From: a virus
Lineage: Duplodnaviria > Heunggongvirae > Uroviricota > Caudoviricetes
Length of the DNA: 41,597 nt
IMG/VR virus record: IMGVR_UViG_640753023_000007
Reading direction: 5' to 3' (one strand)
The notes below the pieces were generated by a model that was not told the DNA's origin, searched no databases, and worked only from the letters and a program-made list of their open reading frames with translations. Position 1 is the stretch's first letter. Each line of letters starts with the position of its first letter. Of this stretch, positions 1,749 through 18,721 are shown piece after piece. The position numbers were made by a program, and so were the translations under genes.

Positions 1749-2061
1749 TCTTGACCTTGTGTTGTGCGGATTGATATTCAGTGCTGATATTCACCTTTAT
1801 AGCGAACACCTTTACCGGTTTATCGCCAAAGTGCGGATGTGTGATTGTCTTCACTTCATATCCGTCATACGGAACATCAATTCTGCGACTGGAATCGTCG
1901 CGCTTCGGATATCCCTTTGTGATAATCAGGCGGTCATATTCCCGGAACATAATTCGCTTATTCCAGTAGTCATTACACAAGCGATACTCTTCCGTTTTCT
2001 CTCCGCGAATCATGGCATCGAAGTATTCACTTTTAACAGCAAGTTGCAGGTTAGCCATCAC
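1732..2061 (-). CDS. Hypothetical protein, possible ASCH/PUA-like fold
   Basis: 109-aa ORF; N-terminal pattern (EYFDAMIRGEKTEEYR then REYDRLI) resembles ASCH-superfamily proteins; ATGA start-stop overlap with the upstream TraR-like gene. Confidence 0.45.
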   Translation of the reverse strand: MMANLQLAVKSEYFDAMIRGEKTEEYRLCNDYWNKRIMFREYDRLIITKGYPKRDDSSRRIDVPYDGYEVKTITHPHFGDKPVKVFAIKVNISTEYQSAQHKVKNVQSD

Positions 2062-2279
2062 TTAATCCCCCTTTGTTTGCGGATAAGCTCCAGATCTTGC
2101 TGGCAACTGGCGCAAGTCCGACAACCCTGAACGGCCAGGCGTCTTCGTTCATCTATCGGATCGCCACACTCACAACAATGAGTGGCAGATACAGCCAGGT
2201 AGTTCAGGCGGCGCATTTTTATTGCTGTGTTGCGCTGTAATTCTTCTATTTCTGATGCTGAATCAATGATGTCTGCCAT
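2058..2279 (-). CDS. TraR/DksA-family C4 zinc-finger protein
   Basis: 73-aa ORF with two Cys pairs (CCEC ... CRTC) typical of the small TraR/DksA zinc-finger proteins found in lambdoid prophages. Confidence 0.7.
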   Translation of the reverse strand: MADIIDSASEIEELQRNTAIKMRRLNYLAVSATHCCECGDPIDERRRLAVQGCRTCASCQQDLELIRKQRGIK

Positions 2280-2331
2280 CTTTCATTAATCCCTGAACTG
2301 TTGGTTAATACGCTTGAGGGTGAATGCGAAC

Positions 2332-2355
2332 AATAAAAAAGGAGCCTGTAGCTCC
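2332..2355 (-). terminator. Candidate intrinsic terminator on the leftward (pL-derived) transcript
   Basis: On the minus strand a 5-bp GC stem (GGAGC / GCTCC, loop of 5 nt) is followed directly by TTTTTTATT; short stem, so weak. Confidence 0.35.
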
Positions 2356-2472
2356 CTGATAATTTTGCTTTTCATGTTCATCGTTCCTTAAAGACGCCGT
2401 TTAACATGCCGATTGCCAGGCTTAAATGAGTCGGTGTGAATCCCTTCAGCGTTACCGTTTCGCGGTGCTTCT

Positions 2473-2655
2473 TCAGTACGCTACGGCAAATGTCATTGAC
2501 GTTTTTGGAAACTGCTGTCTGACTTTTTTGATTTCAGAATTAGCCTGACGGGCAATGCTGCGAAGGGCGTTTTCTTGCTGAGGTGTCACTGAACAAGCCC
2601 CATGTCGGCAAGCATAAGCACACAGAATATGAAGCCCGCTGCCAGAAAAATGCAT
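2473..2655 (-). CDS. Hypothetical small protein in the position of lambda orf61
   Basis: 60-aa ORF downstream of the orf63-like gene on the leftward operon; assignment by position only. Confidence 0.35.
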   Translation of the reverse strand: MHFSGSGLHILCAYACRHGACSVTPQQENALRSIARQANSEIKKVRQQFPKTSMTFAVAY

Positions 2656-2665
2656 TCAGTGGTTG

Positions 2666-2857
2666 TCATACCTGGTCTCTCTCATCTGCTTCTGCTTTCG
2701 CCACCATCATTTCCAGCTTTTGTGAAAGGGATGTGGCTAACGTATGAAATTCTTCGTCTGTTTCTGCTGGTATTGGCACAAACCTGACTCCAATTTGAGC
2801 AAGGCTATGTGCCAAATCAATACTCGTTCTTAACTCAACAGGAGATGCTTTGTGCAT
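2666..2857 (-). CDS. Small protein matching lambda orf63 in size and position
   Basis: 63-aa ORF; its 28-nt overlap with the adjacent exo-proximal ORF matches the lambda orf63/orf60a arrangement as I recall it. Confidence 0.55.
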   Translation of the reverse strand: MHKASPVELRTSIDLAHSLAQIGVRFVPIPAETDEEFHTLATSLSQKLEMMVAKAEADERDQV

Positions 2858-3012
2858 ACCGCCCCCCGTTTATTATTTATCTCCTCAGCCAGCCGCTGGG
2901 CTTTCAGCGGATTTCGGATAACAGAAAGACCGTGAAATACCCAGCCTCGCTTTGTAACGGAGTAGACGAAAGTGATCGCGCCTACCCGGATATTATCGTG
3001 AGGATGGGTCAT
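2830..3012 (-). CDS. Small protein matching lambda orf60a in size and position
   Basis: Track ORF 2830-3018; starting at the second Met gives 60 aa and a 4-nt ATGA overlap with the exo stop, as in lambda. Confidence 0.5.
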
Positions 3013-3689
3013 CGCCATTGCTCTCCAAATACAAAACCAATTTCAGCCAGTGCTTCGTCCATTTTTTCGATGAACTCCGGCACCATCTCGTCAAAACTCG
3101 CCATGTACTTTTCATCCCGCTCAACCACGACATAATGCAGGCCTTCACGCTTCATTCGTGGGTCATAGTTGGCAAAGTACCAGGCATCTTTTCGTGTCAC
3201 CCACATGCTGTACTGCACCTGGGCCATGTAAGCCGACTTTATGGCCTCGAAACCACCGAGCCGGAACTTCATGAAATCCCGGGAGGTAAACGGGCATTTC
3301 AGCTCAAGGCCATTGCCGTCACTGCATAAACCATCGGGAGAGCAGGCGGTGCGCATACTTTCGTCGCGATAGATGATCGGGGATTCAGTAACATTCACGC
3401 CGGAAGTGAATTCAAACAGGGTTCTGGCGTCGTTCTCGTACTGTTTTCCCCACGCCAGCGCCTTAGCATTAACTTCCGGAGCCACACCGGTGCAAACCTC
3501 AGCCAGCAGGGTGTGGAAGTAGGACATTTTCATGTCAGGCCACTTCTTTCCTGAGCGGGGCTTTGCTATCACGTTGTGAACTTCTGAAGCGGTGATGACG
3601 CCGAGCCGTAATTTGTGCCATGCATCATCCCCCTGTTCGACAGCTCTCACGTCGATCCCGGTACGCTGCAGGATAATGTCCGGTGTCAT
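3009..3689 (-). CDS. exo: Lambda exonuclease (Red alpha)
   Basis: 226-aa ORF whose sequence ([39 protein letters not shown]...) matches lambda Exo essentially throughout as recalled; overlaps bet stop. Confidence 0.95.
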
Positions 3690-4471
3690 GCTGCCACCTT
3701 CTGCTCAGTGGCTTTCTGTTTCAGGAATCCAAGAGCTTTCACTGCTTCGGCCTGTGTCAGTTCTGACGATGCGCGAATGTCGCGGCGAAATATCTGGGAA
3801 CAGAGCGGCAATAAGTCGTCATCCCATGTTTTGTCCAGGGCAATCAGCAGAGTGTTAATCTCCTGCATGGTTTCATCGTTAACCGGAGTGATGTCGCGTT
3901 CCGGCTGACGTTCTGCAGTGTATGCGGTATTTTCGACAATGCGCTCGGCTTCATCCTTGTCATAGATACCAGCAAATCCGAAGGCCAGACGGGCACACTG
4001 AATCATGGCTTTATGCCGTAACATCCGTTTGGGATGCGACTGCCACGGCCCCGTGATTTCTCTGCCTTCGCGGGTTTTGAATGGTTCGCGGCGGCATTCA
4101 TCCATCCACTCGGTAACGCAGATCGGATGATTGCGGTCTTTGCGGTAAATCCGGCATGTACATGATTCATTGTCCTGCTCAAAGTCCATACCATCAAACT
4201 GCTGGTTTTCATTGATGATGCGGGACCAGCCATCAACGCCCACCACCGGAACAATGCCGTTCTGCTTATCAGGGAAGGCGTAAATTTCTTTCGTCCACGG
4301 ATTAAGGCCGTACTGGTTGGCGACGATCAACAATGCGATGAACTGCGCATCGCTGGCATCACCTTTAAATGCCGTCTGGCGAAGAGTGGTGATCAGTTCC
4401 TGTGGGTCGACAGAATCCATGCCGACACGTTCAGCCAGCTTCCCTGCCAGCGTTGCGAGTGCTGTACTCAT
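3686..4471 (-). CDS. bet: Recombination protein Bet (Red beta, single-strand annealing)
   Basis: 261-aa ORF matching lambda Bet ([59 protein letters not shown]...). Confidence 0.95.
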
Positions 4472-4476
4472 CCGTT

Positions 4477-4773
4477 TTATACCTCTGAATCAATATCAGC
4501 CTGATGGTGAGCAATGGTTTCAACTATGTACCGGATGTGTTCTGCCATGCGCTCCTGAAACTCAACATCGTCATCAAACGCACGGGTAATGGCTTTTTTG
4601 CTGGCCCCGTGGCGTTGTAAATGATCGATGCATAGCGATTCAAACAGGTGCTGGGGCAGGCCTTTTTCCATGTCGTCTGCCAGTTCTGCCTCTTTCTCTT
4701 CACGGGCGATCTGCTGGTAGTGACGCGCCCAGCTCTGAGCCTCAAGACGATCCTGAATGTAATAAGCGTTCAT
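4477..4773 (-). CDS. gam: Gam, RecBCD inhibitor (short GamS-length form, 98 aa)
   Basis: [24 protein letters not shown]... matches lambda Gam from its internal Met; the long-form start upstream is present but out of frame (see findings). Confidence 0.9.
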
Positions 4774-5949: not shown

Positions 5950-6019
5950 ACGGATAGTCCTGGTATTGTTCCATCACATCTTGAGGATGCTCTTCGAACT
6001 CTTCAAATTCTTCTTCCAT
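5933..6019 (-). CDS. Small acidic ORF (28 aa) in the position of lambda orf28
   Basis: Hand translation MEEEFEEFEEHPQDVMEQYQDYPYDYDY; AAGGTG Shine-Dalgarno-like sequence 5 nt upstream of the ATG; overlaps the ral start. Confidence 0.4.
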   Translation of the reverse strand: MEEEFEEFEEHPQDVMEQYQDYPYDYDY

Positions 6020-6162
6020 ATATCACCTTAAATAGTGGATTGCGGTAGTAAAGATTGTGCCTGTCTTTTAACCACATCAGGCTCGGTGGTTCTCGTGTAC
6101 CCCTACAACGAGAAATCGGATAAACTCTATTCACCCCTACAGAGAGCAAAAGAGAAACGCCG

Positions 6163-6744
6163 ATGAACAACTCATGGTGGCAGGAACTAATGCATTTTTT
6201 CCTGCAAGGAATGACACTTAAACAGTTGATTCATATGCTAATCATCCTGATCATATTGATTATTGTTATGCCGGTAAGCGTAAAAGAATGGATAAACCTG
6301 CATAATCCAGAAATCCTTCCTCATTACTGGATGTATTACATCCTGTTGTTTTGCGTTAGCTATGTGCTTAACGGCGTTGTTAATTCCGCTTATCACGCTG
6401 TGACTGAAAGAATTGAGGTATTCGCTGCTCAGAAGCGCAAATCTAAAGAAGAAAAATATGTGCAAGATTTGTTTGATTCGTTAACTCTTGGAGAAAGAGC
6501 GTATTTGGCATTCGCTGTAGCCGCTAATAACCAGCTACAAACGGAAAAGGGCGCTCATGAATCAATTTCATTGCTCAAAAAAGGACTCCTCGTTCGAAGG
6601 CCTCCTGCTGTTGGATATCCTGATACCGACCGTTTCGTTATCCCTGAAAGCTATAGACATGAGTGCTACATTAGGTTTGCCGGGAAGGCAGACAGCCTTA
6701 TGGATGAACTTATCGCTCAGGATAAGCATGGCAAAAACAAGTAA
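6163..6744 (+). CDS. sieB: SieB superinfection exclusion protein
   Basis: 193-aa plus-strand ORF with hydrophobic N-terminal region (LIHMLIILIILIIVMPV) matching lambda SieB; opposite orientation to flanking genes, as in lambda. Confidence 0.9.
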   Translation: MNNSWWQELMHFFLQGMTLKQLIHMLIILIILIIVMPVSVKEWINLHNPEILPHYWMYYILLFCVSYVLNGVVNSAYHAVTERIEVFAAQKRKSKEEKYVQDLFDSLTLGERAYLAFAVAANNQLQTEKGAHESISLLKKGLLVRRPPAVGYPDTDRFVIPESYRHECYIRFAGKADSLMDELIAQDKHGKNK

Positions 6745-6760
6745 TTAGCAAATGAATTTA

Positions 6761-7033
6761 TCATCTCGCCGTCAGTTGTTTTGATTTCCGGTAGCCTGCC
6801 GCGTAAAGAGCTACGTTCGGAAGACAAGTTGAACCTTCATATTTTCTGGTCAACGTTGTCAGAGTTATCACTTCTGCTCTCATTGCTGGTTTGAGCTTGC
6901 ATTGCAAGACCACTCGTGAAGGGGTTGGCCTGTGTAGCTTGTCGGAGCTGATCGCCTCCTGACTTTGCAGATTTGCGCGACGAGCTCTACGGCGAGAAGC
7001 TGCGGTGCCTTTAAATTCTGTTTTTCTGGACAT
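6761..7033 (-). CDS. N: Antitermination protein N (933W/H-19B-like type, not lambda N)
   Basis: Track ORF 6761-7105; start taken at internal Met (MSRKTEFKGTAASRRRARRANLQ, arginine-rich motif) preceded by GGGAGG at 5-nt spacing; C-terminus CLPNVALYAAGYRKSKQLTAR resembles N of 933W-type phages and P22 gp24. Confidence 0.8.
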   Translation of the reverse strand: MSRKTEFKGTAASRRRARRANLQSQEAISSDKLHRPTPSRVVLQCKLKPAMRAEVITLTTLTRKYEGSTCLPNVALYAAGYRKSKQLTAR

Positions 7034-7131
7034 GGATTCCTCCCGAATAAACTTTGGCGATGCAATCTCGAAGCTCCTCCTGAGACGGTTGCTTCGGCAT
7101 TGCATCCCACAGCTTATGTGGTTGGGTGATC

Positions 7132-7177
7132 TGGCTTTTCAGCCACGTAGTCGAGAGTCGACGTTGTTTAAAGAGCC
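7132..7177 (-). promoter_or_regulatory. nutL candidate (boxA-like GGCTCTTTAAACAACG plus boxB-like hairpin UGGCU-GAAA-AGCCA)
   Basis: On the minus strand, a boxA-like element and a 5-bp stem hairpin with GAAA loop, 16 nt apart, about 100 nt upstream of N; mirrored by a similar pair downstream of cro. Confidence 0.6.
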
Positions 7178-7179
7178 TG

Positions 7180-7300
7180 CCAGTCTGTTCCATTTGGCTT
7201 CCAGCGTCCTGCTGACGGTTAAATAGTACGATATGTACTTTACAAGATCAATACAATTTGTTGTAAGTTGGCGTGGTTTTTTATAACGCTTTGTATTTAA
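7180..7300 (-). promoter_or_regulatory. Probable pL promoter / OL operator region
   Basis: Intergenic region upstream of nutL and N; contains a 17-bp near-palindrome TAGTACGATATGTACTT (7224-7240) related to a motif in the cI-cro intergenic region; promoter hexamers not confidently assigned. Confidence 0.4.
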
Positions 7301-7438
7301 TAGTGTTGTTTTTTAGCGTGGATGTATTGCCTCGGCGATGTAAGGAGAGATCAGAATTGCGTGGTTTAGTGGGTTGCATCTATTTATTTTTCAATAAATA
7401 TAATTGGTTATGTGTTTTTAGGTGGGCGAACGTGAGGC

Positions 7439-7466
7439 AAAGAAAACCCGGCGCTGAGGCCGGGTT
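7439..7466 (-). terminator. Intrinsic terminator ending the cI-orfA-orfB transcript (analogous position to lambda tIMM)
   Basis: Minus-strand hairpin AACCCGGC-(loop)-GCCGGGTT followed by TTTTCTTTG, starting 3 nt after the orfB stop codon. Confidence 0.65.
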
Positions 7467-7469
7467 GTA

Positions 7470-8222
7470 TTATGCTGCAAGTCTCTTAACCCAAGTCTCT
7501 CTTTTGGAGAATGGTAGAACTTGGCTTGATTCATGGAAGAGTAAGGAGAGTTGTTGCATTTGATCACCAATTGCTTCGCTGTCTATAACAACAAATCTGT
7601 TGTTATACTCCTCACTTGAAGCTTTAAGATCAATTAGTTTCCCAAGCAATGAGTAAGCACTATTCCAGCTTCCTCCGTGTTTCACGCTTGATGTAAAAAC
7701 GTATTTAGGTATGTCGGTTTTTATTGTTACAGGGACGGTAATTTGATGTCCACTCAAGCCATATACGTTTTCACGAAGAGAAAGTGCGTCTCTAAGCTCT
7801 GTGTGATATAGATAATCAATAACCATACTTTCAAACTTTTCAGCTTGAACTGGCTGATACCAGTCTAACGACAAAGTTGATGCGAGTATACCAGCTCTAA
7901 TTATGTTCGATGTAATCGCACCGACATCCTTTTCTGTTGCCCAAGCAATGATTTCTCCTCGAGCATTGAGTTCTGCGCCTTCTTTAAGCAGTAATTGTCG
8001 TATCTCATCAAGTCGTTTTTTGGTAAGCGAGATCCCTCTTGCCTCCATATTCATTAAGGCATCGCATCTGTCACTAACTAAATACCTACCATTGACTTCA
8101 CGGATAAAGGCACCGACATGCTCTCCATCATCACAGTAAGTGAATGGACTGATAATTCTCAAGGTCTTGCCTATTGGATGGCATTCGAAACCTAGTTGTG
8201 AGATCACTGTTGAGCACATCAT
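7470..8222 (-). CDS. Hypothetical protein orfB (250 aa), second gene of the cassette in the rexAB position
   Basis: Long ORF with ATG start overlapping the orfA stop (ATGA); no transmembrane segment or catalytic motif recognised by eye; AT-rich relative to flanking genes; followed by a terminator. Confidence 0.65.
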   Translation of the reverse strand: MMCSTVISQLGFECHPIGKTLRIISPFTYCDDGEHVGAFIREVNGRYLVSDRCDALMNMEARGISLTKKRLDEIRQLLLKEGAELNARGEIIAWATEKDVGAITSNIIRAGILASTLSLDWYQPVQAEKFESMVIDYLYHTELRDALSLRENVYGLSGHQITVPVTIKTDIPKYVFTSSVKHGGSWNSAYSLLGKLIDLKASSEEYNNRFVVIDSEAIGDQMQQLSLLFHESSQVLPFSKRETWVKRLAA

Positions 8223-8776
8223 ATTCCAAACCCCATTTGCCCCGACTCATCTTCAAGCGGTAAAGGTATTCTCCCAGAGTAAGTTATGTTCAGATGTTTA
8301 CAGAAGTAATTCCAATACCCTACCAGGTCATCTGGGTTTATGTCATCTTCGATTGGAAACGCTATTCTATCACTATAGTATCCAGCTTCTTCATAGTATA
8401 CATGGTAGTGAGCACCGTAAATGATATCTTGGTACTTCGGATGATCGACCTTGTAACTATTCGTGTGTTTGTCAAAGTGATAGGTATCTACCGCGAAAAC
8501 CCTCTTGTTATGATAGAAAGCAATAATATTTATTTTAGGGTAAGAAATCGGGTCATCAGGTTCTGAATCCTGATCTGGTTTCCATTTCAGTTCAAACTTT
8601 AGCCCTTGTATAGGTATACAATCCTCATCCAAGGGGATGATATGGGCTTGTAGCCACATATCAGAGCGACTTGGTTTCTGTTTCCATTTAACGCCAGAAA
8701 AGTTAACTATTTTTTTACAATAAAGTACTTTATCAACTTCTACTTGGCTTGGCTGATAATCATCTATTTTTGCCAA
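8219..8776 (-). CDS. Hypothetical protein orfA (185 aa), first gene of the cassette directly downstream of cI
   Basis: ORF bounded upstream by an in-frame stop; first possible start is TTG at 8776 (next in-frame ATG is 39 codons in); acidic, Tyr/His/Trp-rich; no motif recognised; AT-rich. Confidence 0.55.
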   Translation of the reverse strand: MAKIDDYQPSQVEVDKVLYCKKIVNFSGVKWKQKPSRSDMWLQAHIIPLDEDCIPIQGLKFELKWKPDQDSEPDDPISYPKINIIAFYHNKRVFAVDTYHFDKHTNSYKVDHPKYQDIIYGAHYHVYYEEAGYYSDRIAFPIEDDINPDDLVGYWNYFCKHLNITYSGRIPLPLEDESGQMGFGI

Positions 8777-8815
8777 TGTTTACCGCCCTGTAAATTGTAG
8801 ATAAAAGTGGTTTCA

Positions 8816-9469
8816 TCACCCAAACGTCTCTTCAGGCCATTGGCTGGCGATAACTTTCCCCACAACGGAACAACTCTCATTGCATGGGATCATTGGGTAT
8901 TGTGGGTTTAGTGGCTGTAGAAACACCTGACCGCTATCCCTGATCAGTTTCTTGAAGGTAAATTCATCACCACCAAGTCTGGCTATGCAGAAATCGCCGG
9001 GCTCAACAGCTTGCTCAGGGTCAACCAGAATTAACATCCCGTCAGGAAAGCTGGGTTTGGAACCTGTTGGTGCGGTCATTGAGTTACCTTCAACCTCAAG
9101 CCAGAATGCAGAGTCACTGGCTTTTTTGGTTGTGCTTACCAATCTCTCCGCATCGCCTTTGGTAAAGGTTCTGAGTTCTGGAGAGAACATCCCAGCCTGA
9201 ACATGAGAAAAAACAGGGTACTCATATTGTTTTTTAACTGGGGCCGATGAGTATTCGCCAACAGGTGAAAATGTCCCGTCGTGGTTGAATGATATGTTAT
9301 CAATACCAAGGTATTTAAACACCACACCAATATCACTAAGAGATGGATGACGAGATCCGCGCAACCAGTGTCCAATCCCACCCTGCGTCATACCTAGCTC
9401 TTCGGCTAACTTCTCTTGAGTTATGCCGAGCTCTTTCATTCTGGATCTAGCCAGTTCATACCATTTCAT
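8816..9469 (-). CDS. cI: CI-type prophage repressor (HTH domain plus LexA/S24-like autocleavage domain)
   Basis: Track ORF 8816-9517; N-terminal HTH ([23 protein letters not shown]) and C-terminal S24-peptidase-like region (WLEVEGNSM ... FKKL); start placed at Met with AAGGA 7 nt upstream (9469); 9475 also possible. Confidence 0.85.
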
Positions 9470-9585
9470 TTTCATGTCCTTATTATTACGCTCTGTACTG
9501 GAACCATCCATGCACAATGTGTATTTTTACTTGTATTCGCAAAGTACATATTGTATTTTTTATTCGTGTTTACTATGGAGGGCAT
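9470..9585. promoter_or_regulatory. Divergent pRM/pR promoter and OR operator region
   Basis: 116-bp AT-rich intergenic region between divergent cI and cro; contains AAGTACATATTGTATTT (9542-9558), matching the reverse complement of the OL-region motif at 14 of 17 positions, plus a 9-bp palindrome CACAATGTG. Confidence 0.5.
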
Positions 9586-9801
9586 ATGAGCAACCTACGA
9601 AAATATCGAGAGTCACTGAATATCTCTCAAACAACACTTGCTAAGGCAGTTGGATGCACACAGGGAGCTATCGGACATTGGGAATCTGGTCGTCGCTTCC
9701 CAGACCTTAAAACATGCCGTGCTCTTGTTGCGTGCCTAAACAAGTTAGGCGCAAAAGTCAGTCTTGATGACGTGTTCCCGCCGGAACACAAAGCCGCTTA
9801 A
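9586..9801 (+). CDS. cro: Cro-like HTH repressor
   Basis: Track ORF 9517-9801; start taken at MSNLRKYRESLNISQTTLAKAVG preceded by GGAGG; HTH motif; divergent from cI. Confidence 0.8.
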   Translation: MSNLRKYRESLNISQTTLAKAVGCTQGAIGHWESGRRFPDLKTCRALVACLNKLGAKVSLDDVFPPEHKAA

Positions 9802-9811
9802 TAAGCGGATC

Positions 9812-9857
9812 CGCTCTTTGTAACAACGGACATTCGTCCTACGTCGCTGAAAAGCGA
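9812..9857 (+). promoter_or_regulatory. nutR candidate (boxA CGCTCTTTGTAACAAC plus boxB hairpin UCGCU-GAAA-AGCGA)
   Basis: boxA-like element and 5-bp stem/GAAA-loop hairpin 16 nt apart, just downstream of cro; stem differs from the nutL boxB by compensatory base changes. Confidence 0.6.
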
Positions 9858-9942
9858 GTTCCAAGATATCTGACCAACTAAGGCCATATGCGTTTCCACG
9901 CATACCTTTCAACTAACTATTCACTATTGGAAATCTTAAGAA

Positions 9943-10239
9943 ATGGAAAGAACAAGTTACAGCAAACTATCACAGCGTGACGTTGATCGCGCAGAAACAG
10001 ATTTACTTATCAATCTGTCAGCTATTACCCAGCGCGGTCTGGCAAAGATGATTGGCTGTCATGAATCGAAGATAAGCAGAACGGACTGGAGATTTATTGC
10101 TTCGGTCTTGTGTGCTTTCGGAATGGCATCAGACATCAGTCCGATTAGCAGGGCTTTTAAGTATGCGCTTGATGGACTCACCAATAAAAAACGCCCGGCG
10201 GCAACCGAGCGTTCTGAACAAATCCAGATGGAATTCTGA
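9943..10239 (+). CDS. cII: CII-like transcriptional activator
   Basis: 98-aa ORF; C-terminal segment TNKKRPAATERSEQIQMEF matches lambda CII, N-terminal part divergent. Confidence 0.8.
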   Translation: MERTSYSKLSQRDVDRAETDLLINLSAITQRGLAKMIGCHESKISRTDWRFIASVLCAFGMASDISPISRAFKYALDGLTNKKRPAATERSEQIQMEF

Positions 10240-10271
10240 GGTCATTACTGGATCAATCCACAGGAGTCATT

Positions 10272-11171
10272 ATGACAAATACAGCAAAAATACTCAACTT
10301 CTGCAGAGGTAACTTTGCCAAACAGGAGCGTAATGTGGCAGATCTCGATGATGGTTACGCCAGACTATCAAATATGCTGCTTGAGGCTTATTCAGGCGCA
10401 GATCTGACCAAGCGACAGTTTAAAGTGCTGCTTGCCATTCTGCGTAAAACCTATGGATGGAATAAACCAATGGACAGAATCACCGATTCTCAACTTAGCG
10501 AGATTACAAAGTTACCCGTCAAACGGTGCAATGAAGCCAAGTTAGAACTCGTCAGAATGAATATTATCAAGCAGCAAGGCGGCATGTTTGGACCAAATAA
10601 AAACATCTCAGAATGGTGTATCCCTCAAAACGAGGGAAAATCCCCTAAAACGAGGGATAAAACATCCCTCAAATTGGGGGATTGCTATCCCTCAAAACAG
10701 GGGGACACAAAAGACACTATTACAAAAGAAAAAAGAAAAGATTATTCGTCAGAGAATTCTGGCGAATCCTCTGACCAGCCAGAAAACGACCTTTCTGTGG
10801 TGAAACCGGATGCTGCAATTCAGAGCGGCAGCAAGTGGGGGACAGCAGAAGACCTGACCGCCGCAGAATGGATGTTTGACATGGTGAAGACCATCGCGCC
10901 ATCAGCCAGAAAACCGAATTTTGCAGGGTGGGCTAACGATATCCGCCTGATGCGTGAACGTGACGGACGTAACCATCGCGACATGTGTGTACTGTTCCGC
11001 TGGGCATGCCAGGACAACTTCTGGTCCGGTAACGTGCTGAGCCCGGCCAAACTCCGCGACAAGTGGACCCAGCTCGAAATCAACCGTAACAAGCAACAGG
11101 CAGGTGTGACAGCCTGCAAACCAAAACTCGACCTGACAAACACTGACTGGATTTACGGGGTGGATTTATGA
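10272..11171 (+). CDS. O: Replication initiator O
   Basis: 299-aa ORF matching lambda O (MTNTAKILNFCRGNFAKQERNVADLDDGYARLSNMLLEAY...); contains the ori iterons. Confidence 0.95.
   Translation: MTNTAKILNFCRGNFAKQERNVADLDDGYARLSNMLLEAYSGADLTKRQFKVLLAILRKTYGWNKPMDRITDSQLSEITKLPVKRCNEAKLELVRMNIIKQQGGMFGPNKNISEWCIPQNEGKSPKTRDKTSLKLGDCYPSKQGDTKDTITKEKRKDYSSENSGESSDQPENDLSVVKPDAAIQSGSKWGTAEDLTAAEWMFDMVKTIAPSARKPNFAGWANDIRLMRERDGRNHRDMCVLFRWACQDNFWSGNVLSPAKLRDKWTQLEINRNKQQAGVTACKPKLDLTNTDWIYGVDL
10619..10750 (+). repeat. Lambda-type replication origin: four iterons plus AT-rich region inside O
   Basis: Four direct repeats of about 18-20 bp (consensus ATCCCTCAAAACGAGGGA) at roughly 10619-10705, followed by an A-rich stretch (ACAAAAGAAAAAAGAAAAG). 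Confidence 0.85.
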
Positions 11172-11869
11172 AAAACATCGCCGCACAGATGGTTAATTTT
11201 GACCGTGAGCAGATGCGTCGGATCGCCAACAACATGCCGGAACAGTACGACGAAAAGCCGCAGGTACAGCAGGTAGCGCAGATCATCAACGGTGTGTTCA
11301 GCCAGTTACTGGCAACTTTCCCGGCGAGTCTGGCTAACCGTGACCAGAACGAACTGAACGAAATCCGCCGCCAGTGGGTTCTGGCTTTCCGGGAAAACGG
11401 GATCACCACAATGGAACAGGTTAACGCAGGAATGCGCGTAGCCCGTCGGCAGAATCGACCATTTCTGCCATCACCCGGGCAGTTTGTTGCATGGTGCCGG
11501 GAAGAAGCATCCGTTATCGCCGGACTGCCAAACGTCAGCGAGCTGGTTGATATGGTTTACGAGTATTGCCGGAAGCGAGGCCTGTATCCGGATGCAGAGT
11601 CTTATCCGTGGAAATCGAACGCGCACTACTGGCTGGTTACCAACCTGTACCAGAACATGCGGGCCAATGCGCTGACTGACGCGGAATTACGACGCAAGGC
11701 TGCCGATGAACTGACCTGTATGACAGCGCGAATTAACCGTGGTGAGACGATACCTGAACCAGTAAAACAACTTCCTGTCATGGGCGGCAGACCTCTAAAT
11801 CGTGTTCAGGCGCTGGCGAAGATCGCAGAAATTAAAGCTAAGTTAGGACTGAAAGGAGCAAGTGTATGA
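11168..11869 (+). CDS. P: Replication protein P (DnaB helicase loader)
   Basis: 233-aa ORF matching lambda P; ATGA overlap with O stop. Confidence 0.95.
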   Translation: MKNIAAQMVNFDREQMRRIANNMPEQYDEKPQVQQVAQIINGVFSQLLATFPASLANRDQNELNEIRRQWVLAFRENGITTMEQVNAGMRVARRQNRPFLPSPGQFVAWCREEASVIAGLPNVSELVDMVYEYCRKRGLYPDAESYPWKSNAHYWLVTNLYQNMRANALTDAELRRKAADELTCMTARINRGETIPEPVKQLPVMGGRPLNRVQALAKIAEIKAKLGLKGASV

Positions 11870-12156
11870 CGGGCAAAGAGGCAATTATTCATTACCTGGG
11901 GACGCATAATAGCTTCTGTGCGCCGGACGTTGCCGCGCTAACAGGCGCAACAGTAACCAGCATAAATCAGGCCGCGGCTAAAATGGCACGGGCAGGTCTT
12001 CTGGTTATCGAAGGTAAGGTCTGGCGAACGGTGTATTACCGGTTTGCTACCAAGGAAGAACGGGAAGGAAAGATGAGCACGAACCTGATTTTTAAGGAGT
12101 GTCGCCAGAGTGCCACGATGAAACGGATATTGGCGGTATATGGAGTTAAAAGATGA
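11866..12156 (+). CDS. ren: Ren (Rex exclusion relief protein)
   Basis: 96-aa ORF overlapping the P stop; matches lambda Ren in size and position. Confidence 0.8.
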   Translation: MTGKEAIIHYLGTHNSFCAPDVAALTGATVTSINQAAAKMARAGLLVIEGKVWRTVYYRFATKEEREGKMSTNLIFKECRQSATMKRILAVYGVKR

Positions 12157-15074: not shown

Positions 15075-16157
15075 TTAGAACTGATAAACCAGACCTACAG
15101 CGACGATGTCGTCGGTATCAATACCAGCTGTTTTGGTAAACTTACTATCGTCAATTAAGTTGATTTTGTAATCAACAAAAGTGGACATGTTTTTATTAAA
15201 GTAGTAAGTAGCACCGACATCGACATACTTGACTAAGTCTCGGTCACCATGAACACCAAGGTCTTTACCTTTTGACTGAAGGTAAGCAACAGATGGACGC
15301 AGACCGAAGTCAAACTGATATTGTGCTACTGCTTCAAAGTTTTGTGCTTTGTTTGCAATATGGTTATTACCAAAAACGGTCATATTCTGAGTTTCAGAAT
15401 ATGTGGTAGCCAGATAGATATTGTTCGCATCATATTTCAGGCCTGCAGCCCATACTTCCGCATTTTTGCCGGAGGCATTGAATTTGCTCTTACCATAGGC
15501 GACCTGACCGTCAGTGCGATCTGATTTAGCATAGGTTGCACCCACGCCGAATCCTTCATACTCATAAGTAGTGGAGAAACCGAAACCATCACCATTGGCT
15601 TCAGTTACGTCAGTGCGGTCATTTTTACCCTGATACTGAGCAGCAAAGTTCAGGCCATCGACCAGACCAAAGAAGTCGTTGTTACGATAAGTTGCAACAC
15701 CAGTAGTGCGACCAGTCATGAACACATCTGTTTGGGTCCAGGTATCACCACCGAATTCTGGCAGAACGTCAGTCCACGCACCGATGTCGTATGCTACACC
15801 GTAGTTACGGCCGTAATCGATTGAGCCGTAATCACCAAATTTCAGGCCTGCAAATGCAAGACGGGTTTTGTCTTTGGAAGAACCTTGAGATTCAGCACGG
15901 TTGCCTTTGAATTCATATTCCCACTGACCGAAACCAGTCAGTTGATCGTTGATTTGGGTTTCACCTTTGAAGCCAAGACGGGCATAAGTAGTATCACCAT
16001 CATCTGCATCATTAGAGGAGAAGTAGTGCTTGGCATTAACTTTCCCGTATAGATCCAGCTTGTTACTGTCTTTATTATAAATTTCAGCTGCCTGAGCAGA
16101 CATCGCCATCAGTACTGATGCAGCTACAGCAGAAATTGCCACTGTTAATTTTTTCAT
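15075..16157 (-). CDS. nmpC: Outer membrane porin NmpC/OmpD-like (lysogenic conversion moron)
   Basis: Track ORF 15075-16217; start at [23 protein letters not shown] (signal peptide); C-terminal residue F; general-porin family features; inserted antisense between Q and the lysis genes as in DLP12. Confidence 0.9.
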
Positions 16158-16582
16158 TGTACGCCCTTTTTTTGAACTATTATTAAAAAATGATGTCACT
16201 GCGCGATAAATATTCATCTAATCAATGTGATTATTTCAAGATGTAAGTTTTAGTTTCTCATTTAATTTGTGAAGTAGATCTCTATTTTTATCTGAACCTT
16301 TTCTATCTAATCCTATTCATGGCTCTTGTCTGAACAAAAATAAATCTATTAGCTAATTTATATTAATGGCACTTATTTATAAGTGCTCTATAATTCTTTA
16401 GCTTAATTTAAACAAACTAAAAATAACATTGGAAATTATTAACTGGTTATTTGTTGAAGTTTTCTTATGCATTTGTGGTGGTGTTTTGAACACTCGGTGG
16501 CATTCTCACAAATATCATTTAGTAGTTTACGTACGTAAAAAATTGGTTATGCTGTTAAGAGTGGTTACTTCGTCACACAGCT

Positions 16583-17947: not shown

Positions 17948-18241
17948 TTATTGTGAGCAATACACACGCGCTTCCAGCGGAGTATAAATGCCTAAAGTAA
18001 TAAAACCGAGCAATCCATTTACGAATGTTTGCTGGGTTTCTGTTTTAACAACATTTTCTGCACCACCACAAATTTTTGCTGCATCGACAGTTTTCTTCTG
18101 CCCAATTCCCGAAACGAAGAAATGATGGGTGATGGTTTCCTTTGGTGTTACTGCTGTAGGTTTGTTTCCAACAGTAAACGTCTGTTGAGCACATCCTGTA
18201 ATAAGCATTGCCAGAGCGGCAGAAAACAACATTTTTTTCAT
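17948..18241 (-). CDS. bor: Bor lipoprotein (serum resistance)
   Basis: Track ORF 17948-18289; start at MKKMLFSAALAMLITGCAQQ (lipobox LITGC); 97 aa; matches lambda Bor. Confidence 0.9.
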   Translation of the reverse strand: MKKMLFSAALAMLITGCAQQTFTVGNKPTAVTPKETITHHFFVSGIGQKKTVDAAKICGGAENVVKTETQQTFVNGLLGFITLGIYTPLEARVYCSQ

Positions 18242-18721
18242 CTTATTATCCTGCATTGTTAAAAACGGCAGAATCCTATGTGACAACAATTAAACGATAG
18301 TTAAATGGATTGATGAAAATTAAAACTACACAGGTGGGCTCAGACTATTGGAGGAAGTTGGGGACACTCAGAATCCTGTGGAATGAAATAAACCGGTCTA
18401 TCCGTCCATTACCCTTTTAGCTGCGCTGTATCGTCGCCGTATTCCCGCATTAACCATGACCGTAGCCCGACGGGGAATTCCTTCTGCGTGAGTGTGCGGG
18501 AATAATTAAAAACGATGCACACCGGGTTTTTACCGCGTTAATGATTCGCGGGTTTATCCCGGTGCGATGGTGGAAGAAACAGGAAGCTGTATTACAGAAA
18601 GTGCTACTACTGTATCCCGATGCGATGTATGTAATGTGAGTCAGATAATGGCACAGGATGTGGTGATGTGGCAGTCTGGAACACAGGATATATTGTCAGA
18701 ATAAGACCCGTAGGAATAAAA

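What the first reader, a model, noticed from the sequence alone, without database searches (positions are those of the whole stretch)
7439..8815. Uncharacterized AT-rich two-gene cassette in the rexAB slot, downstream of cI and ending at its own terminator
Lambda carries the RexA/RexB abortive-infection system at this locus. Here, instead, two unrelated ORFs (orfA 185 aa, orfB 250 aa) sit on the cI strand: orfA begins 39 nt after the cI stop, orfB overlaps orfA by ATGA, and an intrinsic terminator follows 3 nt after the orfB stop. By hand count, sampled 60-nt stretches are roughly 35-42 percent G+C against roughly 48-60 percent in flanking lambda-type genes, which suggests horizontal acquisition. 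Neither protein shows TM helices, P-loop, kinase or nuclease motifs I can recognise, so they are not obvious RexAB analogues. Being co-oriented with cI and bounded by the terminator, the pair would plausibly be expressed in the lysogen, as prophage exclusion systems are.
Basis: partly seen in the sequence, partly recalled or inferred. Interest (0 to 1): 0.9.

Follow-up and report, generated by a model that had tools for sequence, protein, structure and literature searches.

The report
Untested two-gene cargo behind prophage repressor
Where phage lambda carries its rexAB exclusion genes, this lambda-like E. coli phage carries two conserved, translationally coupled genes of unknown function that travel with prophage repressors across many bacteria and are most likely an untested anti-phage defence.

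Summary
On the minus strand, cI (8816-9517) is followed after 39 nt by orfA (8219-8776, 185 aa, TTG start). orfB (7470-8222, 250 aa) overlaps it by ATGA, and a hairpin terminator (7466-7445) starts 3 nt after the orfB stop. The cassette is 39.5% G+C against 50.3% for the window.

Two corrections. The terminator is not the cassette's own. It is the backbone terminator in the position of lambda t_imm, shared with lambda, HK542 and 2B8, and homology breaks exactly at the cI stop and at the hairpin. OrfB is also not featureless. Its model has a YbjN/type-III-chaperone-like N-domain (Pfam DUF1828) and a restriction-endonuclease-fold C-domain without a recognisable catalytic triad.

OrfA has no solved structural relative and carries an invariant His/Asn/Arg cluster. 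Both genes are under purifying selection. They were adjacent in 80 of 80 viral contigs and lay downstream of diverse repressors in 79 of 80.

The pair is a distant relative of the PADLOC candidate PDC-M24, which I found no report of anyone testing. It is present in 241 of 5426 complete E. coli genomes, including Nissle 1917 and CFT073.

The best reading is a lysogen-expressed candidate defence module. That rests on association only, and the mechanism is inferred.

The parts
8816..9517 (-). cI-type repressor (HTH_3 plus Peptidase_S24). It is the first gene of the presumed lysogenic operon that carries the cassette. The PhiR57_1 annotation starts it at 9511.
   Evidence: Pfam Peptidase_S24 E 1.3e-28 and HTH_3 E 2e-10; annotated cI in PhiR57_1.
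8777..8815 (-). 39-nt spacer between the cI stop and the orfA start. This is the right-hand recombination junction of the cargo slot: similarity to lambda, HK542 and 2B8 ends at the cI stop.
   Evidence: Sequence; four-phage alignment A6; no terminator-like site here.
8219..8776 (-). orfA, 185 aa, TTG start. A small beta-rich cytosolic protein with no solved structural relative. Invariant W31 R92 N106 H123 H125 F158 P173; near-invariant K22 D97 H104 G121 Q180. Weak, partial similarity to DUF6978 and PDC-M24A.
8219..8222 (-). ATGA overlap of the orfA stop and the orfB start, implying translational coupling. It is conserved in 10 of 11 relatives examined.
7863..8222 (-). orfB N-terminal domain (about aa 1-120): Pfam DUF1828 with a YbjN/type-III-secretion-chaperone-like fold. 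Most conserved motifs are SPFTYCDDGEH (aa 25-35) and DRCDALMNMEARGI (aa 51-64).
7473..7841 (-). orfB C-terminal domain (about aa 128-250): restriction-endonuclease-like alpha/beta fold. Invariant G155 S157 G158 H159 P164 W186 G194 D198, and an acidic residue at 214. No recognisable D...(D/E)xK triad.
7437..7466 (-). Intrinsic terminator (hairpin 7466-7445 plus T-rich tail). It is a backbone element in the position of lambda t_imm and forms the left-hand junction of the cargo slot. It is not specific to the cassette.
   Evidence: Terminator scan; the hairpin and its downstream flank are near-identical in lambda, HK542 and 2B8, while the sequence upstream of the hairpin is unrelated; flank matches in many Stx phages end at window 7466-7467.

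Best explanation
orfA-orfB is a mobile two-gene accessory module sitting in the cargo slot between the repressor gene and the immunity-region terminator of a lambda-like temperate phage. It is therefore read through from the repressor promoter in lysogens (inferred from layout).

My best guess is that it is a cytosolic anti-phage exclusion or abortive-infection system. The two proteins are made in a coupled fashion: orfA from a conserved weak non-ATG start, orfB through the ATGA overlap. They probably act as a complex (inferred).

OrfB would combine a chaperone-like N-domain, which plausibly binds a protein or peptide (either a phage product or OrfA), with a restriction-endonuclease-fold C-domain. 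OrfA would contribute a conserved His/Asp/Asn/Arg site that looks like a metal or catalytic centre. On infection by a heterologous phage the complex would be switched on and would attack nucleic acid, or another essential target, blocking the invader (inferred).

Shown here: the anatomy, the conservation, the modular mobility, the fold assignments and the distant kinship to PDC-M24.

Not shown: expression, complex formation, any enzymatic activity, and any effect on phages.
For: (1) Slot. The module sits precisely where lambda has rexAB, bounded by the cI stop and the shared terminator. Other phages hold other cargo there.

(2) Operon layout. Same strand as cI, 39-nt gap, no terminator before 7466, and promoter-like hits no more frequent than in shuffled sequence.

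(3) PDC-M24 kinship. The only PADLOC hits are to the two components of one candidate system. OrfB matches PDC-M24B at E 4.7e-10 over residues 2-249, and OrfA matches PDC-M24A at E 4.8e-4. Distant family members give the same pairing. PDC systems were nominated because they are found embedded in BREX, DISARM or type I RM loci.

(4) Obligate pairing. In 80 of 80 IMG/VR contigs with an OrfB homologue, an OrfA-family gene abuts it. The same holds in all genome and metagenome loci examined.

(5) Module mobility. The 99-100% identical cassette is linked to at least three different repressors. More broadly it sits behind S24-type and HTH-only repressors in Escherichia, Yersinia, Providencia, Xenorhabdus, Pantoea, Klebsiella and Aeromonas.

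(6) Defence-type neighbours. In some bacteria the pair lies beside a McrB-like AAA protein plus a DUF2357/PDDEXK_7 protein; the AAA protein matches PDC-M26A at E 1.5e-41. In some prophages a DUF3024 gene (PDC-S43, E 1.4e-38) is stacked in the same slot.

(7) Folds. OrfB has a chaperone-like domain plus a nuclease-fold domain.

(8) Selection and maintenance. Both genes are under purifying selection. The cassette is intact, at 99% identity or more, in 239 of the 241 complete E. coli genomes that carry it.
Against: - No experiment exists. PDC-M24 was listed by its authors as untested.
- The track record of PADLOC candidates is mixed. Four of eight gave protection in one study, and two of two gave none in another.
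- The OrfA match to PDC-M24A and DUF6978 is weak and partial: 22 bits, below the Pfam cut-off of 29.6.
- The nuclease-fold domain lacks a recognisable catalytic triad. Candidate acidic positions present in distant relatives are T162 and F176 in this clade, so it may be non-catalytic.
- OrfA has no structural analogue to lean on.
- The almost exclusive linkage to repressor genes could instead point to a role in the lysis-lysogeny switch.
- Expression in lysogens is inferred from layout only.
Confidence: 0.5

Rival explanations
1. The pair is a toxin-antitoxin-like addiction module. One protein is toxic and the other neutralises it, and its main effect is to stabilise the prophage rather than to exclude other phages.
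For: It is a tightly coupled two-gene operon with a 4-nt overlap and a conserved weak start codon on the first gene. Pairing is obligate. OrfA has a catalytic-looking conserved site. Many such modules also act in defence, so this rival overlaps the best explanation.
Against: There were no hits to any toxin or antitoxin family in Pfam or PADLOC. Neither protein has the DNA-binding domain typical of type II antitoxins. The module sits in a slot known for exclusion cargo, and its relatives lie beside restriction-type systems.
Confidence: 0.15
2. The pair modulates the prophage's own lysis-lysogeny switch or its induction, for example by acting on the repressor or on the SOS signal.
For: A repressor gene lies immediately upstream on the same strand in 79 of 80 viral contigs and in nearly all other loci. 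From my own recollection, not checked here, lambda RexA has been reported to influence the switch as well as to exclude phages.
Against: The upstream repressors are very diverse: S24-type at 29-100% identity and HTH-only types. The identical cassette is found with at least three different repressors, which argues against a repressor-specific partner. The pair also occurs with no repressor at all, next to a McrBC-like system. The slot holds unrelated cargo in sister phages.
Confidence: 0.12
3. The pair is a lysogenic-conversion cargo that alters host physiology for a reason unrelated to phages, such as stress tolerance or metabolism.
For: Other cargo genes of this phage family have host-directed roles: a porin gene, bor, and sitABCD in PhiR57_1. 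YbjN-family proteins, which resemble the OrfB N-domain, are general regulators in enterobacteria (AmyR hit).
Against: There is no match to any metabolic or envelope family. The only library matches are to a defence-candidate system. Relatives have defence-island neighbours.
Confidence: 0.1
4. The pair is neutral hitch-hiking DNA with no current function.
For: All 241 E. coli copies are at least 99% identical, which within E. coli could simply reflect recent spread.
Against: Across genera, synonymous sites are saturated while amino-acid change stays at 0.14-0.38 per site. Gene order, the overlap and the start position are conserved down to 21-25% protein identity.
Confidence: 0.03

Closest known systems
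Phage lambda RexA/RexB abortive-infection system
   Same: It occupies the identical genomic slot (between the cI stop and the immunity-region terminator), on the same strand as cI, as two genes, in an AT-rich cargo region. It is presumably expressed in lysogens in the same way.
   Different: There is no sequence relationship: the Rex models hit lambda's proteins but neither of these. RexB is a polytopic membrane protein, whereas neither OrfA nor OrfB has a hydrophobic segment. The effector therefore cannot be a Rex-type membrane channel.
PADLOC phage defence candidate PDC-M24 (Payne et al. 2024, bioRxiv 10.1101/2024.01.29.577857)
   Same: It is a two-gene A-then-B cassette. OrfB matches PDC-M24B over nearly its full length (E 4.7e-10). 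OrfA and its distant relatives match only PDC-M24A (E 4.8e-4 to 1.5e-6). The corresponding Pfam families are DUF6978 (A) and DUF1828 (B).
   Different: This is a divergent branch. OrfA is below the Pfam cut-off and matches only its C-terminal half. The context is a prophage immunity region rather than embedding in BREX, DISARM or type I RM. PDC-M24 itself has no experimental support.
BstA and other single-locus prophage defences encoded next to the repressor gene (Owen et al. 2021, PMC8585504)
   Same: The concept is the same: a defence gene carried by a temperate phage in the repressor neighbourhood, active in the lysogen against heterologous phages. I saw only the title and abstract of this paper. 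The placement of BstA next to the repressor is from my own recollection.
   Different: The proteins are unrelated, with no PADLOC hit. This is two genes rather than one. No self-immunity element has been looked for here.
PD-(D/E)xK restriction-endonuclease-fold effectors (for example the Can2/Card1 nuclease domain, and NgoMIV/PspGI/Cfr10I-type enzymes)
   Different: There is no detectable sequence similarity. No D...(D/E)xK triad is recognisable. The conserved residues are instead S157-G158-H159, D198 and an acidic residue at 214. Catalytic competence is unknown.
YbjN / type III secretion chaperone-like fold (DUF2170, AmyR, SicP, ShcA)
   Different: Sequence identity is only 8-13%. Here the domain is fused to a nuclease-fold domain, and it has its own strongly conserved acidic motifs. 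No secretion system is involved.

Membership tests
RexAB (lambda) | RexA homologue | tested here: not met
   The PADLOC RexA model hits lambda RexA at E 9e-110 but gives no hit to OrfA or OrfB at E up to 1.
RexAB (lambda) | RexB homologue, a multi-pass membrane protein | tested here: not met
   The RexB model hits lambda RexB at E 8.6e-61 but not these proteins. Maximum 19-residue hydropathy is 0.45 and 1.19, so there is no TM segment.
RexAB (lambda) | Location between cI and the immunity-region terminator, on the cI strand | tested here: met
   Junction alignments with lambda.
PADLOC PDC-M24 candidate | B component (PDC-M24B model) | tested here: met
   E 4.7e-10, protein residues 2-249 against profile positions 4-254 of 256.
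PADLOC PDC-M24 candidate | A component (PDC-M24A model) | tested here: inconclusive
   E 4.8e-4, covering only residues 104-163. 5 matches among the 23 family members (3 to one PDC-M24A model, 2 to another), best E 1.5e-6. PADLOC's own calling thresholds were not available.
PADLOC PDC-M24 candidate | Genes adjacent, in the order A then B, on one strand | tested here: met
PADLOC PDC-M24 candidate | Demonstrated anti-phage activity | not testable with these tools
   The authors list it among 145 untested candidates. No later test was found.
Pfam DUF1828 | Score above the gathering threshold | tested here: met
   33.5 bits against a cut-off of 22, OrfB residues 26-110.
Pfam DUF6978 | Score above the gathering threshold | tested here: not met
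   22.0 bits against a cut-off of 29.6 for OrfA. Only 3 of 23 family members match at E 1e-3 or better. The relationship is distant at best.
PD-(D/E)xK nuclease superfamily | Restriction-endonuclease-like alpha-beta-beta-beta-alpha-beta core fold | tested here: met
PD-(D/E)xK nuclease superfamily | Catalytic D...(D/E)xK, or a known variant of that motif | tested here: inconclusive
   No conserved acidic residue lies at the start of strand 2 or within strand 3. The invariant residues are H159, D198 and D/E214. Residue-level superposition was not available.
Type II toxin-antitoxin systems | A toxic protein neutralised by its co-encoded partner | not testable with these tools
   There are no family hits. 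This needs expression experiments.

The most novel reading that the evidence does not exclude
orfA-orfB is a genuinely new anti-phage system that specialises in riding behind prophage repressor genes. A chaperone-like sensor fused to a non-canonical nuclease-fold domain would work with a small enzyme of a previously unseen fold (OrfA, with an HxH/H/D/N/R site) to abort infection by a mechanism unlike Rex or any characterised system. It could also account for part of the unexplained phage resistance that Nissle 1917's lambdoid prophage contributes.
Probability: 0.35. Interest if true: 0.7.

Novelty: new variant of a known kind. Interest (0 to 1): 0.55.

Why it matters
The repressor-to-terminator slot of lambdoid phages is a classic home for exclusion systems, rexAB being the textbook case. 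This cassette is a common occupant that, as far as I could find, nobody has tested.

It is carried by about 4% of complete E. coli genomes. These include the probiotic Nissle 1917, the uropathogen CFT073 and the species type strain. Bury et al. (PMC5987069) explicitly left open which other genes of the Nissle prophage contribute to its phage resistance.

If active, the cassette would add a defence family with one protein of no known fold. It would be the first experimental support for the PDC-M24 candidate class. It would also matter for phage therapy and for engineering probiotic strains. The experiment is cheap and direct.

Tried and rejected
- **Solved-structure sequence search.** Profiles of both families found nothing real. 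The one 'significant' hit for OrfA (designed Kelch repeat SAKe6AC, E 1e-10) is the sum of six weak repeats, each with an individual E above 50, and I rejected it as an artefact.
- **RNA families.** Rfam found no RNA family in 6000-10400.
- **Literature.** Searches for DUF1828, DUF6978, PDC-M24, the RefSeq protein accessions, Nissle locus tags and the PhiR57/PhiR63/ev207 phage names found no functional study.
- **The Nissle 'phage repressor' gene.** I checked whether the 'pr' gene reported to protect against lambda and Stx phages is part of this cassette. Its primers map to window 9897-10266, which is the cII gene, so it is not the cassette and not cI.
- **Apparently split cI in CFT073.** This comes from N characters and extra G residues in the old genome sequence, so I do not treat it as biology. 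I did not check the similarly annotated cI in Nissle at sequence level.
- **Separate promoter.** An internal or separate promoter for the cassette is not supported. Promoter-like hits are no more frequent than in shuffled sequence (5 found against an expected 6.4).
Full report
**1. What is in the sequence**

The window is a complete lambda-like temperate phage genome, running from integrase to side tail fibre. It is colinear at 97.7-99.8% identity with Escherichia phage PhiR57_1 positions 1-44206, apart from a 2.5-kb deletion in the ea region. Over 7300-8900 it is 100% identical to phages ev207, ev017, PhiR57_1 and PhiR63_2.

The features on the minus strand are as follows.

| Feature | Coordinates | Notes |
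|---|---|---|
| cI | 8816-9517 | HTH_3 plus Peptidase_S24 |
| spacer | 8777-8815 | 39 nt |
| orfA | 8219-8776 | 185 aa, TTG start |
| orfB | 7470-8222 | 250 aa, overlaps orfA by ATGA |
| terminator hairpin | 7466-7445 | 8 bp, G+C-rich, T-rich tail, starts 3 nt after the orfB stop |

N (Pfam N_peptide) lies at 6761-7105, with its likely start at 7033, and sieB lies at 6163-6744 on the plus strand. No other terminator-like site lies between cI and 7466. Promoter-like matches in the region are no more frequent than in shuffled sequence.

The cassette is 39.5% G+C against 50.3% for the window, and GC3 is 0.34-0.36 against 0.45-0.58 in cI, O and P. Neither protein has a hydrophobic segment.

**2. 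These are real, selected genes**

Homologues of both proteins occur in Salmonella, Klebsiella, Yersinia, Serratia, Providencia, Xenorhabdus, Photorhabdus, Pectobacterium, Pantoea, Edwardsiella, Aeromonas and others. Against orthologues from six genera, synonymous sites are saturated (0.70-0.89 differences per site). Non-synonymous differences are 0.14-0.38 per site.

The orfA start lies at a conserved position and is a non-ATG codon in most relatives: TTG here and GTG in 9 of the 12 others examined. The ATGA overlap with orfB is conserved in 10 of 11 relatives. That pattern suggests low, coupled translation.

**3. The slot and its borders**

I aligned the window with lambda, HK542 and 2B8. Similarity runs through the 3' end of cI up to the stop codon and then stops. 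It resumes exactly at AACCCGGCC..GCCGGGTTTTCTTTGCCTCACG, which is the hairpin, and continues toward pL and N.

Between these two anchors the phages carry different cargo:
- lambda has rexA and rexB;
- HK542 has two unrelated ORFs;
- 2B8 has a NYN-domain protein;
- this phage has orfA-orfB.

The terminator therefore belongs to the backbone, in the position of lambda t_imm, and is not the cassette's own. The cassette itself is an exchangeable module.

**4. How the module travels**

- In seven full-length genome loci from seven species, an OrfA homologue directly precedes the OrfB homologue. A cI-like HTH plus S24 repressor lies just upstream on the same strand, with cro/replication-type genes divergent.
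- The same layout is seen in Klebsiella Rac-like prophages, behind an HTH-only repressor, and in Aeromonas prophages, behind an S24 repressor.
- In IMG/VR, 80 of 80 viral contigs with an OrfB homologue (50-100% identity) have an OrfA-family gene abutting it. In 79 of 80 a repressor-like gene lies within 1.6 kb upstream on the same strand.
- The 99-100% identical E. coli cassette is linked to at least three different repressors.
- Family members with only 21-25% identity to OrfA keep the arrangement (L015/L016 and L022).
- One lineage lacks a repressor. There the pair lies beside a McrB-like AAA protein (PDC-M26A, E 1.5e-41) and a DUF2357/PDDEXK_7 protein, which is a restriction-type neighbourhood.
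- In some prophages a DUF3024 gene, itself the PADLOC candidate PDC-S43 (E 1.4e-38), is stacked between the repressor and orfA.

**5. What the proteins look like**

*OrfB.* It has Pfam DUF1828 in its N-terminal part (33.5 bits, above threshold). Its AlphaFold2 model (pLDDT 81.8, pTM 0.69) has two domains.
- The second domain resembles restriction-endonuclease-fold proteins: Can2 9.9, PspGI 9.6, BstEII 9.5, NgoMIV 9.3, VC1899, Cfr10I.
- No sequence-level relative has a solved structure.
- Across the broad family the invariant residues are S25 P26 D32 G33 D51 G63 R70 G89 in the first domain, and G155 S157 G158 H159 P164 W186 G194 D198 in the second, plus an acidic residue at 214.
- The classical D...(D/E)xK residues are not recognisable. 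Acidic residues that distant members have in strands 2 and 3 are T162 and F176 in this clade. Whether the domain cuts anything is open.

*OrfA.* It gives a confident model (pLDDT 85.9, pTM 0.83): a mostly antiparallel beta protein with two helices.
- Among predicted viral structures it matches only one uncharacterised protein.
- An exhaustive profile search of 1.84 billion representative proteins found only 32 clusters at E 1e-3 or better, so the family is rare.
- Its alignment shows invariant W31, R92, N106, H123, H125, F158 and P173, and near-invariant K22, D97, H104, G121 and Q180. That pattern suggests a metal-binding or catalytic site. This is an inference.

**6. Relation to known systems**

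In PADLOC-DB the only hits are to the two components of one candidate system. OrfB matches PDC-M24B (E 4.7e-10, nearly full length), and OrfA matches PDC-M24A (E 4.8e-4, C-terminal half). Distant relatives repeat this pairing. OrfA is also a sub-threshold relative of Pfam DUF6978.

PDC-M24 is one of 145 candidates that Payne et al. nominated because relatives are embedded in BREX, DISARM or type I RM loci. The authors state that these are untested. Later studies that tested some PADLOC candidates did not include M24 and had mixed outcomes: 4 of 8 active in one, 0 of 2 in another.

The pair is not RexAB. PHROGs lists both families as of unknown function.

**7. Distribution and prior work**

The cassette is present, single-copy and chromosomal, in 241 of 5426 complete E. 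coli genomes, all at 99% identity or more. These include Nissle 1917, CFT073, NU14 and the type strain ATCC 11775. RefSeq annotates the genes as 'DUF1828 domain-containing protein' and 'hypothetical protein'.

Bury et al. 2018 (PMC5987069) showed that Nissle's lambdoid prophage 3 contributes to resistance against lambda and Stx phages, and they tested one gene, 'pr'. Their primers map to window 9897-10266, which is cII.

Their Table S2 lists two hypothetical genes, EcN_1291 and EcN_1292, between the sieB-like gene and cI. These are absent from SE15, IAI1 and MG1655, and the table carries no functional data for them. By position they are probably this cassette. The authors explicitly left the role of the other prophage genes open.

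**8. Interpretation**

The most economical reading is a lysogen-expressed accessory module whose job is to interfere with other phages. The supporting evidence is the slot, the modular mobility among immunity regions, kinship of both partners to one defence-candidate pair, defence-type neighbours in non-prophage contexts, and a sensor-plus-nuclease-fold architecture. All of this is circumstantial. I put defence at about 0.5.

Within that, I favour a cytosolic OrfA-OrfB complex that is activated by a phage product and then attacks nucleic acid. That mechanism is inferred and could easily be wrong in detail, because the nuclease-fold domain lacks canonical catalytic residues and OrfA is of unknown fold.

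The rivals are a TA-like addiction module (0.15), a modulator of the phage's own switch (0.12), a host-directed conversion function (0.10) and neutral cargo (0.03).

**9. Verdict**

The finding is not a surprise in kind. The slot is known to carry variable exclusion cargo, and distant relatives are already catalogued as a candidate. The proteins are uncharacterised, though, and one has no known fold. The module is common in medically and biotechnologically important E. coli strains, and the decisive experiment is simple.

I class it as a new variant of a known kind, with interest 0.55.

Noticed in passing
window 9943-10239 (+), primers at 9897-9915, 10140-10198, 10246-10266: The 'phage repressor (pr, EcN_1294)' gene of Nissle 1917 was reported to reduce lambda and Stx phage plating about 200-fold when cloned on pUC19 (PMC5987069). 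Its primers map to the cII homologue of this phage, not to cI. The reported effect may therefore come from CII overproduction rather than from repressor immunity.
   Followed up: partly
window 8774-8776 and relatives L002-L008, L015-L017: The orfA start codon is non-ATG in most relatives: TTG here, and GTG in 9 of the 12 others. The orfB ATG overlaps the orfA stop almost everywhere. This looks like a conserved device for low, coupled expression.
   Followed up: partly
L002 7044-7385, L004 7053-7394, L005 7052-7393; also L068-L071 and L073: In some Izhakiella and Providencia prophages and some viral contigs, a 113-aa DUF3024 gene sits between the repressor and orfA. It matches another untested PADLOC candidate, PDC-S43 (E 1.4e-38). 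A 114-aa ORF with no family match holds the same place in Thorsellia (L008 7010-7354), and an 82-aa ORF does so in L015. The slot can stack several cargo genes.
   Followed up: partly
L018 1554-5549, L020, L021: In an uncultured lineage the OrfA/OrfB-like pair is followed by a McrB-like AAA protein with an MrcB_N domain (PDC-M26A, E 1.5e-41) and a 780-aa DUF2357 plus PDDEXK_7 protein. This is a McrBC/LlaJI-like neighbourhood outside any prophage.
   Followed up: partly
L012 1631-2682 (phage HK542) and L013 1676-2533 (phage 2B8): Sister phages fill the same slot with other uncharacterised cargo. HK542 and HK244 have two ORFs (206 and 144 aa) with no Pfam or PADLOC match. 2B8 has a 285-aa NYN-domain protein with weak hits to PADLOC HEC-09 and NYN. 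All of these are candidates for the same kind of test.
   Followed up: partly
L010 4377-5078 (CFT073), L011 3877-4578 (Nissle CP007799): RefSeq annotates cI as split or pseudogenised in these two genomes. In CFT073 the region contains N characters and extra G residues relative to the window, so the split is probably a sequence-quality artefact. The Nissle record was not checked at sequence level.
   Followed up: partly
window 6163-6744 (+), 11866-12156 (+), about 15080-16222 (-), about 17953-18246 (-): The phage carries further accessory genes, identified by colinearity with PhiR57_1: sieB (phrog_1301, E 3e-122), ren, an OmpD/NmpC-type porin gene between Q and the lysis genes, and bor. PhiR57_1 additionally carries sitABCD beyond the end of the window.
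   Followed up: no
window about 8816-8900 (3' end of cI): A 2026 paper (PMC12803456) reports a small RNA, svsR, encoded at the 3' end of the cI gene of a lambdoid prophage of E. coli NC101, and says it limits infection by virulent coliphages. The last ~100 nt of cI here are nearly identical to lambda, HK542 and 2B8. Whether svsR corresponds to this segment, or whether the NC101 prophage carries orfA-orfB, could not be checked.
   Followed up: no
window 2057-2068 versus PhiR57_1 2058-4576: Relative to PhiR57_1, the window lacks about 2.5 kb of the EaA/Ea22 region. It also lacks about 90 bp near window 19762.
   Followed up: no
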